Position numbers and translations under genes: made by a program. The notes beneath the pieces are model-generated. The model did no database searches. It saw only the letters and a list, made by a program, of their open reading frames with translations, and was not told where the DNA came from. This document shows positions 4,380 to 6,923 of a stretch of DNA of 64,000 bases, piece after piece. Positions within the stretch are counted from its first letter, which is position 1; every line of letters starts with the position of its first letter. The stretch covers positions 224,001-288,000 of the forward strand of contig OZ219917.1 of assembly GCA_964291415.2 (NCBI GenBank), in the 5' to 3' direction. The stretch is from Alphaproteobacteria bacterium. GTDB lineage: Bacteria; Pseudomonadota; Alphaproteobacteria; SP197.

Positions 4380-4832
4380 CTAAGCGGCCACTTGGTGCGG
4401 TTGCCAGCCTTCTTCTGTGTCTTCGAAGCTCAACTCGTCGCCAGTCATATCGTCGAGCCTGGAGAGTTGTTCGAGCATCTCCTTGACTCCCTCATTCTCC
4501 CCAACATGTTCGATGTAGATAAGCCTCAGCAGGCGTTCAGCCGCTCCGTCGATCTTGGATTGTTCTTTCTCCCAGCGAGCGATGCTCTGGCCGTTCTTGC
4601 CGAGAGTCATGCCCAGCACTGTTTGAGACAGTCCGAGCTCATGCCTCAGGAACCGAATCTCCCTCCCGTTCAGGGATTTCTTTTCAAAGACGAGATACCC
4701 GCCGATCGCGCGATGCAGATTATCGATGTTCTCAATATGCACCGCCTTGCCATGCGGTGTTTCCGAGTATCGGAAGCCGTTTAGCAGGTAGACATTGTCG
4801 AGTCCGCACTCGCGATAGTGATATCTTCCCAT
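4380..4832 (-). CDS. XRE/HTH regulator, MqsA/HigA-like antitoxin partner of DUF4258
   Basis: YHYRECGLDNVYLLNGF N-terminus and HTH EIRFLRHELGLSQ..QSIARWEK. Confidence 0.85.
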   Translation of the reverse strand: MGRYHYRECGLDNVYLLNGFRYSETPHGKAVHIENIDNLHRAIGGYLVFEKKSLNGREIRFLRHELGLSQTVLGMTLGKNGQSIARWEKEQSKIDGAAERLLRLIYIEHVGENEGVKEMLEQLSRLDDMTGDELSFEDTEEGWQPHQVAA

Positions 4833-4860
4833 TGGTCCTCTTTCTCTAAATGTTGTGGAT

Positions 4861-5142
4861 CTAGATGACCGTGACAACGGTGAGGGTCTTGTCGCCCTCC
4901 TTTATTGCCACGACGACCCGAGTGATCCGTCCGGCGCTGCGCTTTCTCAGACTCACCTTCCAGTCCCCGTATTCATCCAGCGTTGGCTTGCTGATGATCT
5001 TGCCGTTTCGAAGCGTATCAAGCGCTTGGCGCATGGTGACGTTCCTGTCTCTCATCCTCGCGTGCGCATGACTGGACCATCCAATCCTGTCGGAGTCGGT
5101 CACCGCTTCACGAATGATGCTCTGAGCCGCCTCCTTAGACAT
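4861..5142 (-). pseudogene. DUF4258 (RelE-like) toxin, 3' part, interrupted by IS110 (5' 14 codons at 6680-6721)
   Basis: WSSHAHARMRDRNVT..VVTVI. Removing 5143-6679 gives a continuous 107-aa ORF. Confidence 0.75.
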
Positions 5143-5234
5143 CATGGATTGACCTGCCCTGGCCTCGAGGATCGTGGGTTATTCTCGAGGTCAGGAACCC
5201 TTTGAGTACAGAGCCACATCGAGGAGGGCAGGTC

Positions 5235-6362
5235 ATGGTCGAGTATAACGCATTCGTTGGTCTGGACGTCCACAAGGAGACGATCGCGGTGGCGGTTGCG
5301 GTGCCGGGTCGAGAGGATCCGGTGTACCGGGGCGAGATCTCCAACAAGCGTTCATCGTTGCGTCGCCTGGTTGGCAAGCTGAGTTCGCATGGCGAAGTGT
5401 TGAGCTTCGCTTATGAGGCCGGTCCCTGCGGCTATGGGGTGTACCGGGAGCTTGTGGCGACGGGCCACGACTGCATGGTGGTGGCGCCGAGCCTGGTTCC
5501 GCGCAAGGCGGGTGACCGGGTGAAGACGGATCGTCGTGACGCGCTGAACCTGGCGCGTCTTCACCGCGCCGGGGAGTTGCGTCGGGTGTGGGTTCCCGAC
5601 GCCGATCAGGAGGCGATGCGAGACCTGACGCGGGCGCGCGAGGACATGAAGGCGATCGAGCTCAAGGCCAGGCAGCGCCTGGGAGCGTTCCTGCTACGCC
5701 ACGAGCGGATCTACGCGGGTCGCAGCCGCTGGACGCAGGCGCACTTCCGCTGGCTGGAGGAGCAGTCCTTCGAGCATCCGATGCAGCAGGTGGTGTTCCA
5801 GGAGTACGTGGATGCGGTGCTGGACGCCCAGCGCCGGGTGGCGGGCCTGGACGAACAGATCCACCAGGCTGTCGCCACGTGGTCGTTGCGTCCTTTGGTG
5901 GAGGCCTTGATCAGCCTGCGCGGCGTCAACGTTCTCACCGCGGTGACGGTGCTGGCCGAACTCGGCGACCTGACGCGCTTCGACAGCCCCCGTCAACTGA
6001 TGAGCCATCTCGGCCTGGTGCCCAGCGAGCACTCCTCAGGCGCACGGCGGCGGCGGAGTGGAATCACCAAGACCGGCAACGGCCACGTGCGCCGCGTGCT
6101 CGTCGAGGCCGCCTGGAGCTATCGCTTCGCGGCCCGCAAGACGGCCCATCTCCAGCGCAAGGCCGCCTCGGCCCCGCCCCGGGTCCAGGCCCTCGCCTGG
6201 GCTGCCCAGAAACGCCTGTGCGGCCGCTACCGGCGGCTCTCCCATGCCGGCAAGGCGCACTGCCAGGTGACCACCGCCGTGGCCCGCGAGCTGGCCGGCT
6301 TCATATGGGCCATCGCCTGCGAGATGGCTGGCCGTCCCCACGGCAGTCGTGCCCTGACCTGA
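5235..6362 (+). CDS. IS110 family transposase/recombinase
   Basis: DEDD RuvC-like residues GLDVHK, YEAG, KTDRRDA. C-terminal GLVPSEHSSG and ITKTGN. SD GAGGAGG. Confidence 0.96.
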   Translation: MVEYNAFVGLDVHKETIAVAVAVPGREDPVYRGEISNKRSSLRRLVGKLSSHGEVLSFAYEAGPCGYGVYRELVATGHDCMVVAPSLVPRKAGDRVKTDRRDALNLARLHRAGELRRVWVPDADQEAMRDLTRAREDMKAIELKARQRLGAFLLRHERIYAGRSRWTQAHFRWLEEQSFEHPMQQVVFQEYVDAVLDAQRRVAGLDEQIHQAVATWSLRPLVEALISLRGVNVLTAVTVLAELGDLTRFDSPRQLMSHLGLVPSEHSSGARRRRSGITKTGNGHVRRVLVEAAWSYRFAARKTAHLQRKAASAPPRVQALAWAAQKRLCGRYRRLSHAGKAHCQVTTAVARELAGFIWAIACEMAGRPHGSRALT

Positions 6363-6425
6363 ATGCCGCAGATCCTGAAACAACCCACAACTCTGCCTGG
6401 CAAGGCAACCAACAAAGGACGATCA

Positions 6426-6626
6426 GGCATGACGGGTGCGGAACGCGGGTGGTCGGTGAGGAGAACCCTCGTTCTGCCTATGCGCGGCGAACCGGAACGT
6501 TCGTCAACCCGCGTCATTAGACAGAGGCAGCTCCGCGACGAAGTGAAGTCAGGTGGTAACCAACCCACGGATATCAGAGTGATCCACCGTCGCAGCAAGC
6601 CGCCCGCGGTCCGCTCCCGTCATGCC
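6426..6626 (+). ncRNA. putative bridge/seekRNA of the IS110 element
   Basis: ~27-bp closing stem (6426-6452 with 6599-6626) enclosing stem-internal-loop domains that carry target-like 7-mers. Expression and ends are not demonstrable from sequence. Confidence 0.6.
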
Positions 6627-6679
6627 AAAAGGAGGTCGGGATAGAAACGGACCGAGCCGGTATAGACAGGTCAATACAT

Positions 6680-6721
6680 ATCAGTCAGTGTCTTCGGAAA
6701 CGGTATGATTTCAGCAGTCAT
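6680..6721 (-). pseudogene. 5' fragment (MTAEIIPFPKTLTD) of the DUF4258 toxin gene
   Basis: 42 nt, in frame with MSKEAAQ... after IS removal. Confidence 0.65.
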
Positions 6722-6725
6722 ACAT

Positions 6726-6758
6726 CTATCAATATGATAGGTACGATCCGACTGTCAA
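6726..6758 (-). promoter_or_regulatory. putative sigma70 promoter/operator of the DUF4258-HTH operon
   Basis: TTGACA (6758-6753), 16 nt, CATATT (6736-6731), overlapped by palindrome CTATCA-ata-TGATAG (6726-6740). Confidence 0.6.
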
Positions 6759-6923
6759 CCACCGAGTTATCACGCTTTTCGTGACCAACGAGTCCGTGCG
6801 GCTGTCTGCGCTCTCTCTCCGCCGCTCTGGAGACATCCTTGAGGCACGCGCCTTGCCGTCGTCACCGAACTCCTCCTCGCGCTGACAGCGATTTCCATGA
6901 CGCGGACGGCGTTGCCGATCACG

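What the first reader, a model, noticed from the sequence alone, without database searches (positions are those of the whole stretch)
5143..6679. IS110/IS1111 element with a candidate bridge/seekRNA whose loops match its own reconstructed target
Seen: intact DEDD+Ser recombinase, 9-bp sub-terminal IRs, and ACAT at both junctions, giving the empty site CCTTAGACATATCAGTCAG. The 3' non-coding end forms a ~27-bp closing stem (6426-6452/6599-6626). Inside, CTGCCT/AGGCAG and CGCGG/CCGCG stems flank an internal loop whose 3' side holds TTAGACA (6517-6523, identical to left flank 5135-5141) and whose 5' side holds TATG (6479-6482, complement of CATA in the target). A second domain closed by CGACG/CGTCG holds ATATCAG (6571-6577, identical to 6678-6684). 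Known: IS110/IS1111 recombinases use element-encoded RNAs with target- and donor-binding loops. Inference: the guides can be read directly here, and two same-strand matches in separate domains do not fit the IS621 layout. ATATCAG could instead be a donor guide if the true right end lies a few nt further out.
Basis: partly seen in the sequence, partly recalled or inferred. Interest (0 to 1): 0.8.

Follow-up and report, generated by a model that had tools for sequence, protein, structure and literature searches.

The report
Ordinary IS1111-type insertion sequence with bridge RNA

Summary
The element is real: an IS110-family (IS1111-type) insertion sequence with an intact DEDD+Ser transposase, 9-bp sub-terminal inverted repeats and a structured RNA gene in its 3' non-coding end.

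A contig of public run X3 joins window 5136 directly to 6683, skipping 1546 bases, with two ambiguous letters, AG. The element is therefore 5139-6684 with a 2-nt core AG, and the empty site is CCTT-AG-TCAG. Unoccupied sites of two relatives give the same geometry.

With these ends the RNA is canonical.
- **Target loop:** 5' side UUCUGCCU (6472-6479) complements core plus right flank. 3' side UCAUUAG (6514-6520) equals left flank plus core.
- **Donor loop:** AUAUCAG (6571-6577) equals the element's own right terminus plus core.

Guide/flank covariation across homologues is strong for the right target guide: 147 of 210 positions against a shuffle mean of 67.5.

Verdict: a new member of a known kind, of modest interest.

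The parts
5139..6684 (+). The insertion sequence, 1546 bp. It can equally be written 5137-6682, because the 2-nt core AG is present at both junctions.
   Evidence: A contig of run X3 joins 5136 to 6683, skipping 1546 bases with 2 letters fitting either side. Three full copies in the genome share these ends.
5137..5138 (+). Core dinucleotide AG at the left junction. The matching copy at the right junction is 6683-6684.
   Evidence: both = 2. The same AG is seen in relatives with unoccupied sites.
5139..5143 (+). Left terminal extension ACATC, outside the inverted repeat. Together with 5144-5145 it forms the -10-like box CATCAT 5140-5145 of a junction promoter.
   Evidence: Boundary. Junction-spanning boxes.
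5148..5156 (+). Left sub-terminal inverted repeat ATTGACCTG.
5163..5190 (+). Left-end stem-loop (CCTCGAG/CTCGAGG). Its loop CGTGGGTT 5173-5180 is complementary to 6561-6568 of the RNA. Role unknown.
   Evidence: The stem shows compensatory changes in relatives when their left ends are read by eye.
5235..6362 (+). Transposase gene, 375 aa. Predicted DEDD residues are D11, E61, D99 and D102; the Ser is S268 in the GLVPSEHSSG motif.
   Evidence: Pfam, NCBIfam, and the alignment to the ISCro4 chain, which places KTDxxD and the SG serine. The IS621 catalytic residues are named in a PMC11208158 passage.
6428..6624 (+). Bridge RNA / long seekRNA gene. Closing stem P1 (6428-6453 with 6599-6624) encloses two arms.
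   Evidence: RNAalifold on 51 homologues. Pair counts: 96.4% paired against 37-46% when slid. Fold z-score -4.16.
6460..6534 (+). Target-binding arm. Stems are GGAG 6460-6463 with CUCC 6531-6534 and CCUC 6467-6470 with GAGG 6524-6527. The internal loop is 6471-6481 and 6513-6523, with an inner stem-loop at about 6482-6512.
   Evidence: CCUC/GAGG changes compensatorily in 12 of 51 sequences.
6472..6479 (+). Right target guide UUCUGCCU. It is complementary to the top strand of core plus right flank (AG+GCAG.. at copy 2; AG+TCAG.. at the window copy, with one mismatch next to the core).
   Evidence: Covariation test: 147 of 210 variable positions complementary, shuffle mean 67.5, maximum 95, 0 of 10000 shuffles as high. 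Table.
6514..6520 (+). Left target guide UCAUUAG, identical to the top strand of left flank plus core. The following ACA 6521-6523 equals the element's own first three bases.
   Evidence: 71 of 180 against a mean of 49.6, 1 of 10000 shuffles as high. for the three trailing bases (full match in 20 of 41 rows).
6535..6593 (+). Donor-binding arm. Closing stem GCGACG with CGUCGC; hairpin GUGG 6553-6556 with CCAC 6565-6568.
   Evidence: One hairpin pair is CG in 30 and UA in 21 of 51 sequences.
6544..6551 (+). Tentative right donor guide UGAAGUCA. It is complementary to 6 of the 8 top-strand bases AGACATCA at 5137-5144.
   Evidence: 3 to 8 of 8 over 41 rows, only L014 perfect. L039 shows a compensatory change.
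6571..6577 (+). Left donor guide AUAUCAG, identical to the element's last five bases plus core (6678-6684).
   Evidence: 45 of 51 rows have a right end; 18 match 7 of 7, 25 match 6 of 7, 1 matches 5 of 7, 1 matches 3 of 7. Each guide class fits its own terminus class best.
6663..6668 (+). -35-like box TAGACA (TTGACA or TTGACG in relatives). It lies 17 nt from CATCAT only when the ends are abutted.
   Evidence: This is a consensus match only.
6667..6675 (+). Right sub-terminal inverted repeat CAGGTCAAT.
6676..6682 (+). Right terminal extension ACATATC.
   Evidence: Boundary.
4861..5138 (-). 3' part of the DUF4258 gene that the element split.
   Evidence: Pfam PF14076, E 6.3e-13.
6685..6721 (-). 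5' part of the same gene (MTAEIIPFPKTL..).
   Evidence: Translation. Homologue L114 begins MSKIIPFPKK.

Best explanation
Window 5139-6684 is one of three copies of an IS1111-type member of the IS110 family.

**Element.** Its transposase is a DEDD/RuvC-like domain plus a Ser-bearing Tnp domain. The RNA gene is in the 3' non-coding end (about 6428-6624).

**RNA fold.** The RNA folds into a long closing stem carrying two arms.
- Arm 1 is the target-binding loop. [quoted passage not shown] The two guides overlap at the core, in the IS1111 order: the top-strand match lies 5' of the bottom-strand match.
- Arm 2 is the donor-binding loop. [quoted passage not shown] **Inferred mechanism.** By homology with IS621 and ISEc11, the element excises as a circle. 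The abutted ends create a promoter for the transposase and RNA. A transposase tetramer loaded with the RNA then exchanges strands at AG between the circle junction and a site of the form nnTT-AG-(G/T)CAG, leaving no duplication.

**Shown here:** the ends and core, the conserved RNA fold, and the guide/flank and guide/terminus covariation.

**Inferred from the family:** RNA-protein binding, the circle, the promoter and the chemistry.
For: **Protein family.** PF01548 E 2.7e-19 and PF02371 E 4.1e-22. NF033542 'IS110 family RNA-guided transposase' 275.5 bits. Weak hits to the ISCro4 and IS621 transposase chains, with KTDxxD and the SG serine aligned.

**Ends and core.**
- A contig of run X3, differing at 3 of the 437 bases laid on 4700-5136, joins 5136 to 6683 with 2 ambiguous letters.
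- Relative L022 lies in a tandem repeat whose next unit is unoccupied and reads ..TTTTGT-AG-GAGCGC...
- Group B relatives lie in IS630 transposase genes. Two unoccupied plasmid copies read CTAGTGGAT where an occupied one reads CTAG + element + AGTGGAT.
- All three genomic copies are flanked TTAG...AG.

**RNA fold.** 51 distinct homologues, 45 pairs, 96.4% of cells paired against 78.0% in shuffles (0 of 500 as high) and 36.9-45.9% when slid. 27 pairs carry compensatory changes.

**Guides.**
- Right target guide: 147 of 210 positions over 35 unique guide/site pairs, 0 of 10000 shuffles as high. Left target guide: 71 of 180 over 36 pairs, 1 of 10000.
- The 93% copy in the same genome has different guides (CGGGCU and UUGUUAG) and sits at ..TTGTT-AG-CCCC...
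- Donor guide: 43 of 45 rows match their own terminus at 6 or 7 of 7.
- AUAUCAG with terminus ATATCAG is kept in L038, L039 and L042, which have different inverted repeats.

**Literature.** Layout from PMC11187229 sections 9, 10 and 14 and PMC11208160 passages.
Against: - No RNA has been shown from this locus. The only RNA-library run (X1) holds contigs of a relative, and contigs cannot prove transcription.
- No sigma-70-like promoter was found on the + strand within 5000-6800.
- The empty site of the window copy rests on one contig with only 30 letters on its shorter side.
- The window copy's own site is an imperfect match to the guides. The right target guide fits 5 of 8 with a mismatch next to the core, and the left target guide 6 of 8. 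Copy 2 fits the left target guide at only 4 of 8.
- Donor-guide covariation rests on about three terminus classes. All 24 typical group B rows carry one constant mismatch (AUCAGAG against ATGAGAG).
- The proposed right donor guide is weak: 3-6 of 8 in 40 of 41 rows.
- Siddiquee et al. found a short RNA comprising only the target arm sufficient for ISEc11 (PMC11187229 section 10). The second arm may therefore be dispensable.
Confidence: 0.85

Rival explanations
1. seekRNA-only model. Only the first arm (about 6460-6534) is a guide. It recognises the target and also the same flanks around the donor copy. The element's ends are read by the protein through the sub-terminal repeats. The second arm is scaffold, and its AUAUCAG resembles the terminus by shared descent.
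For: - The short 82-nt RNA was sufficient for ISEc11, and the authors say the role of the long RNA is not established (PMC11187229 sections 10 and 14).
- Terminus and guide fall into only about three classes here.
- The right donor guide is poorly matched.
Against: - The same alignment columns track three different termini: ATATCAG, ATACCAG and AT(G/C)AGAG.
- The match survives in relatives whose inverted repeats differ.
- L039 shows a compensatory change on the 5' side of the loop.
- Durrant et al. report donor-binding nucleotides in predicted IS1111 bridge RNAs (PMC11208160 passage).
Confidence: 0.12
2. The element is 5143-6679, the target is TTAGACAT-ATCAG, TTAGACA and TATG are the two target guides in one loop, and ATATCAG is a further same-strand target guide. 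This would be a non-IS621 arrangement.
For: The 7-mer identities are real. CAT or ACAT is repeated at both junctions in the three copies.
Against: - The empty site skips 1546 bases, not 1537, and has only AG in common.
- Unoccupied sites of relatives agree with this.
- The distance between the two flank-matching segments is equal in groups A and B only under the AG core.
- The CTGCCT/AGGCAG stem is not conserved.
Confidence: 0.02
3. The conserved 3' region acts as DNA, for example as protein-binding sites or a terminator, and not as an RNA.
For: No transcript was demonstrated here and no Rfam family matches.
Against: - 27 pairs carry compensatory changes, and G-U pairs are tolerated on one strand.
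- Guide segments covary with flanks in the strand-specific way expected of an RNA.
- Homologous regions give transposase-bound RNAs in four IS1111 elements (PMC11187229 abstract and section 9).
Confidence: 0.01

Closest known systems
IS1111-family elements with a seekRNA (ISEc11, ISPa11, ISKpn4, ISPst6; Siddiquee et al. 2024, PMC11187229)
   Same: - Sub-terminal inverted repeats with terminal extensions.
- The longer non-coding region lies downstream of the transposase gene.
- GLxPxxxxSG motif.
- The RNA segment complementary to the top strand lies 5' of the bottom-strand one, and the two overlap at the insertion point.
- Natural reprogramming between close relatives.
- A long form (here about 197 nt) and a short target arm (here about 75 nt).
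- No internal promoter was found, which fits co-transcription from a junction promoter.
   Different: - The transposase is 375 aa, against the 330-350 aa that paper quotes for the family.
- Its best matches in the search are metagenome-assembled proteobacteria, Halomonas and rhizobia.
- Identity to the named elements was not measured here, because no reference sequences were available.
- Nothing here has been tested experimentally.
IS621 bridge RNA (Durrant et al. 2024, PMC11208160; Hiraizumi et al. 2024, PMC11208158)
   Same: - Two loops, each with one guide for a bottom strand and one for a top strand.
- All guides include a 2-nt core.
- DEDD plus Ser composite chemistry is inferred from the family.
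   Different: - The RNA is in the right end, not the left end.
- The order of guides within each loop is reversed.
- The core is AG, not CT.
- The two arms sit side by side inside a long closing stem.
- Long inverted repeats flank the donor core.
- The transposase is only weakly similar (E 2.5e-4 to 8wt6).
- The handshake guides of IS621 lie next to the top-strand guides. Here the extra matching bases (ACA 6521-6523) follow the bottom-strand guide and are not conserved beyond the first A.
IS4321/IS5075, IS1111 members that insert in the terminal repeats of Tn21-family transposons (cited in PMC11208160; known to me from the reference title only)
   Same: The group B relatives found here likewise target the end of another mobile element, the stop-codon region of IS630-family transposase genes.
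   Different: The window element itself targets a short site, TT-AG-(G/T)CAG, and is found in a DUF4258 gene and at two other unrelated places.

Membership tests
IS110 family, IS1111 group | N-terminal DEDD (RuvC-like) transposase domain | tested here: met
   PF01548, E 2.7e-19, residues 8-153. D11, E61, D99 and D102 were placed using the alignment.
IS110 family, IS1111 group | C-terminal Tnp domain (PF02371) with a conserved Ser in GLxPxxxxS(T)G | tested here: met
   PF02371, E 4.1e-22. GLVPSEHSSG aligns to GLTPRRYESG of ISCro4. The motif is as given in PMC11187229 section 6.
IS110 family, IS1111 group | Sub-terminal inverted repeats of 7-17 bp with short terminal extensions | tested here: met
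   A 9-bp perfect repeat at 5148-5156 and 6667-6675 (10-14 bp in relatives). Extensions of 5 nt on the left and 7 nt on the right.
IS110 family, IS1111 group | The longer non-coding region lies downstream of the transposase gene | tested here: met
   Left end 5139-5234 is 96 nt. Right end 6363-6684 is 322 nt.
IS110 family, IS1111 group | Site-specific insertion without a target duplication, with a short core shared by donor and target | tested here: met
   A 2-nt overlap, AG. Three copies are flanked TTAG...AG.
seekRNA / bridge RNA | Conserved structured RNA whose internal loop carries segments matching both strands of the target and overlapping at the insertion point | tested here: met
   Structure. 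Covariation with flanks.
seekRNA / bridge RNA | A second loop that pairs with both sides of the donor (circle) junction | tested here: inconclusive
   The left donor guide is well matched: 43 of 45 rows at 6 or 7 of 7. The right donor guide is weak: 3-8 of 8. There are few independent changes.
seekRNA / bridge RNA | The RNA is transcribed, binds the transposase and is required for movement | not testable with these tools
   The only evidence is contigs of a relative in one RNA library (X1), which do not show transcription.
IS110 family, IS1111 group | Circular intermediate with a junction promoter | not testable with these tools
   The sequence is compatible: TAGACA, 17 nt, CATCAT across the abutted ends, 9 of 12 matches. 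Relatives score up to 10 of 12.
Any Rfam 15 family | A match at or near the gathering score | tested here: not met
   Four matches with E 3.4-8.1, all to snoRNA models, at 13.7-17.9 bits against gathering scores of 37-95.

The most novel reading that the evidence does not exclude
The element may carry a contact between its ends that has not been described, in addition to the two guide loops. The loop of the conserved left-end hairpin (CGTGGGTT, 5173-5180, in the transposase 5' untranslated region) is complementary to the 3' strand and loop of the donor-arm hairpin of the bridge RNA (6561-6568).

This pairing could tie transposase translation, or donor-end architecture, to the amount or folding of the guide RNA. 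In addition, the comparative data would make this family a clean natural case showing that IS1111 'long seekRNAs' are true two-loop bridge RNAs that read the terminal extensions outside the inverted repeats.
Probability: 0.1. Interest if true: 0.55.

Novelty: new member of a known kind. Interest (0 to 1): 0.3.

Why it matters
As biology it is ordinary. IS1111-type elements with a 3' guide RNA were described in 2024.

Its value is practical.
- It adds a well-delimited family of 51 distinct RNAs in the main alignment, plus more in the second alignment and model search. The family has a covariation-supported fold, a defined AG core, readable target guides and a probable donor guide, and no Rfam model covers it.
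- It shows natural reprogramming inside one genome: two variants with different guides sit at different sites.
- It shows how misplacing the terminal extensions of an IS1111 element produces a false target and an apparently odd guide layout.

If the donor loop is confirmed, it supports the two-loop bridge model for the IS1111 group. The seekRNA study left the role of the long RNA open.

Tried and rejected
**My own first boundary models were wrong.** I dropped both after the unoccupied IS630 copies, the L022 repeat and the X3 joint.

**Searches for empty sites that found nothing.**
The loose guide-derived patterns matched only other sequences, none resembling the target.
- Left flank of the window copy in 41 genomes including G000: 0 of the 40 others matched.
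- Flanks of copies 3 and 2 in 23 genomes of the genus, including G000: matches never reached the junction, and the copy 2 flank hit a repeat 239 nt away.
- Pattern scan in 5 group B genomes: 1 hit in unrelated sequence, no better than the control, which gave 5.
- Other IS630 copies in those genomes were occupied, or had a different 3' end.

**Weak or indecisive evidence.**
- DUF4258 homologues (32-41% identity, 5 of the 300 other genomes searched) were too distant to fix the junction to the residue. They only showed that the N-terminus lies on the right flank.
- Run X1 (RNA library) holds contigs of a relative over 5148-6593. Five of the 7 listed differences within 6430-6593 fall in the two target guides. 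Contigs cannot show transcription, ends or level, so I do not count this as expression. Runs X2 and X4 added nothing decisive.
- The promoter scan found nothing on the + strand within the element.
- The complementarity between the left-end hairpin and the RNA is 8-10 nt, against a shuffle mean near 7 and maxima of 9-12. A single sequence is therefore not significant, and the partner region differs between groups A and B. It is left unexplained.
- Handshake guide reading: the ACA after the left target guide matches the left terminus fully in 20 of 41 rows, and only the first A is constant. In IS621 the handshake guides lie beside the other guide. I make no claim here.

**Closed or limited sources.**
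The long-seekRNA folds (Supplementary Figs 6-9 of PMC11187229) and Extended Data Fig. 10c and Supplementary Table 5 of PMC11208160 may already show this architecture. I could not see them.
- I did not search the literature for the left-end hairpin contact, so I make no claim that it is unpublished.

**What I saw of each paper.**
- PMC11187229: outline, abstract and sections 6, 9, 10, 13, 14.
- PMC11208160 and PMC11208158: passages found by term.
- PMC13626964: reference-list passages only.
- All others: search listings only.
Full report
**What is there.**
The region holds a 375-aa ORF (5235-6362) with the two Pfam domains of IS110-family transposases: PF01548 E 2.7e-19 and PF02371 E 4.1e-22. 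It matches NCBIfam NF033542, 'IS110 family RNA-guided transposase', at 275.5 bits against a cut-off of 140. It is only weakly similar to the solved ISCro4 and IS621 transposases (E 7.5e-5 and 2.5e-4). The printed ISCro4 alignment nevertheless places the KTDxxD motif and the serine of GLxPxxxxSG. The catalytic residues of IS621 are named in a passage of PMC11208158.

The genome holds three full copies:
- the window copy;
- an identical copy on contig 2;
- a 93% identical copy on contig 2.

It also holds several degenerate end fragments.

**The ends.**
Three lines of evidence put the crossover elsewhere.

1. More distant relatives (54-57% transposase identity, 'group B') all sit in the stop-codon region of IS630-family transposase genes. 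Two unoccupied plasmid copies read CTAGTGGAT. An occupied one reads CTAG, then the element, then AGTGGAT.
2. Relative L022 (66% identity, same end architecture as the window element) lies in a tandem repeat. The neighbouring unit is unoccupied and differs only by the absence of the element and of one AG.
3. For the window copy itself, a 1329-nt contig of public run X3 is decisive. It differs at 3 of the 437 bases laid on 4700-5136. It joins 5136 directly to 6683, skipping 1546 bases, with two letters that fit either side.

The element is therefore 5139-6684 (or 5137-6682), the core is AG, and the empty site is CCTT-AG-TCAG. The 5-nt left and 7-nt right extensions outside the 9-bp repeats belong to the element. 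Siddiquee et al. describe the same mistake in early ISfinder entries (PMC11187229 section 13).

The caveat is that the X3 joint rests on one contig with 30 letters on its short side. I found no further empty sites in the genome itself or in relatives.

The insertion split a DUF4258 gene. Its first 12 codons lie at 6686-6721 on the minus strand and carry the IIPFPK motif, which is also present at the N-terminus of a homologue.

**The RNA.**
Of 327 relatives found, the best 80 were kept. From these I aligned 51 distinct copies of the 230-nt region.

RNAalifold gives a long closing stem P1 (6428-6453 with 6599-6624) enclosing two arms. On that structure:
- 96.4% of cells are standard pairs, against 78.0% in shuffles (0 of 500 as high) and 36.9-45.9% when the partners are slid;
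- 27 of 45 pairs show changes on both sides, including 18 of the 20 pairs of P1.

The single sequence folds with z = -4.16. No Rfam family matches. A covariance model built from a 53-sequence alignment of the two arms gave 10 matches in 20 further loci. In the genome it found four hits: the three copies plus one remnant at 58 bits.

It pairs in 52.9% of cells, against 53.6% in shuffles, and is no better than slid controls.

**The target loop.**
Arm 1 is closed by GGAG/CUCC and CCUC/GAGG. The latter becomes CCCU/AGGG-type in 12 sequences.

*Right target guide.* The 5' side of its internal loop carries a variable block ending in an almost invariant CU (6472-6479, UUCUGCCU). Across 35 unique guide/site pairs this block is complementary to the top strand of AG plus the right flank at 147 of 210 variable positions. 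The shuffle mean is 67.5, the maximum 95, and 0 of 10000 shuffles reach the observed value. With G-U wobble allowed the count is 160 of 210.

*Left target guide.* The 3' side (6514-6520, UCAUUAG) equals the left flank plus AG. The signal is weaker but real: 71 of 180 against 49.6, with 1 of 10000 shuffles as high. The effective length is about 4-6 nt.

The order (top-strand match 5', bottom-strand match 3') and the overlap at the insertion point are what Siddiquee et al. report for IS1111 seekRNAs (section 9).

The 93% copy carries different guides and sits at a site that fits them. This is natural reprogramming within one genome. The window copy's own site is an imperfect fit: the right target guide matches 5 of 8 and the left target guide 6 of 8.

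Over 41 rows those three bases match fully in 20, and only the first A is constant.

**The donor loop.**
Arm 2 is closed by GCGACG/CGUCGC and contains the hairpin GUGG/CCAC, in which one pair is CG in 30 and UA in 21 sequences.

*Left donor guide.* On the 3' side of the loop, AUAUCAG (6571-6577) equals the last five bases of the element plus AG. A right end could be read in 45 of the 51 rows. The same alignment columns match the row's own terminus as follows:

| Match to own terminus | Rows (of 45) |
|---|---|
| 7 of 7 | 18 |
| 6 of 7 | 25 |
| 5 of 7 | 1 |
| 3 of 7 | 1 |

The Halomonas clade has AUACCAG with terminus ATACCAG. Group B has AUCAGAG with terminus ATGAGAG, and L055 has a perfect ATCAGAG. 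Relatives with different inverted repeats (L038, L039, L042) keep AUAUCAG with ATATCAG.

*Right donor guide.* A 5'-side segment (6544-6551) is complementary to the core plus left terminus at 6 of 8 here, at 8 of 8 in L014, and at 3-6 of 8 elsewhere. L039 shows one compensatory change.

I therefore read this arm as a donor-binding loop with moderate confidence. In IS621 the two bottom-strand guides likewise lie in separate loops, so the layout is not anomalous.

**Mechanism.**
Shown here:
- the ends and core;
- the conserved fold;
- the covariation of guides with flanks and termini.

Inferred from the family:
- the RNA binds the transposase;
- the element circularises;
- strand exchange occurs at the core.

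One piece of sequence-level support exists for the circle. Only when the right end, one AG and the left end are abutted do a -35-like box (TAGACA 6663-6668; TTGACA or TTGACG in relatives) and a -10-like box (CATCAT 5140-5145) lie 17 nt apart. This arrangement recurs in 43 distinct end pairs. No promoter-like site lies on the + strand inside the element. That fits co-transcription of transposase and RNA from a junction promoter, as proposed in PMC11187229 (section 14). These are consensus matches only.

**Expression.**
One RNA-library run (X1) holds contigs of a 90-99% similar relative over 5148-6593. Five of the 7 listed differences within 6430-6593 fall in the two target guides. Contigs cannot show transcription, so this stays a hint.

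**Verdict.**
This is a new, well-delimited member of a known kind.

What remains unexplained is the conserved complementarity between the left-end hairpin loop and the donor-arm hairpin.

Noticed in passing
window 5163-5190 and 6561-6568: A conserved left-end stem-loop has a loop, CGTGGGTT, complementary to AACCCACG in the donor arm of the RNA. It is kept in group A relatives. In group B the motif is CGAGGGTT, and its perfect partner is AACCCUCG in the target arm. A single match is not beyond chance (shuffle mean near 7, maximum 9-12).
   Followed up: partly
window 6663-6668 with 5140-5145: Promoter-like boxes TAGACA, 17 nt, CATCAT are formed only across the abutted ends. Relatives have TTGACA or TTGACG with CAT(C/G/T)AT at the same spacing.
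   Followed up: partly
window 4380-5138 and 6685-6721, minus strand: The element split a DUF4258 gene that is followed by an HTH_19 gene (4380-4877), possibly a toxin-antitoxin-like pair. After the insertion an ATG inside the element's left end (5145-5143) keeps a 94-aa frame open.
   Followed up: partly
loci L040-L091 (group B relatives); L110, L111, L112: Relatives with 54-57% transposase identity insert at CT-AG-TGGA, in the stop-codon region of IS630-family transposase genes of rhizobia and other alphaproteobacteria. Most copies of that IS630 relative in five genomes were occupied.
   Followed up: partly
own genome: L004-L010, L007/L122, C2:497224: Degenerate left-end-like pieces (76-97% identity over 36-187 nt) and one remnant of the donor arm plus right end, all without a transposase gene. 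The L005 piece lies upstream of an OrfB_IS605 (TnpB-like) ORF.
   Followed up: partly
L019 1280-1390 with 2716-2826; L086 1251-1388 with 2781-2918: In two relatives the left flank is an inverted copy (111 and 138 nt) of part of the element's own RNA region. The junction falls at the left-target-guide sequence, which mimics a left junction. This may reflect self-targeting or rearrangement.
   Followed up: no
L038 left junction; L034: L038 has GG at the left junction, whereas its RNA and its right junction have AG. L034 carries target guides that do not fit the site it occupies, while its sister copies L035 and L036 do fit theirs.
   Followed up: no
L028-L030, L075, L090: Some relatives carry a tandem duplication of the right end: two right repeats 120-290 nt apart, and in L028-L030 and L090 also a second RNA anchor.
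   Followed up: no
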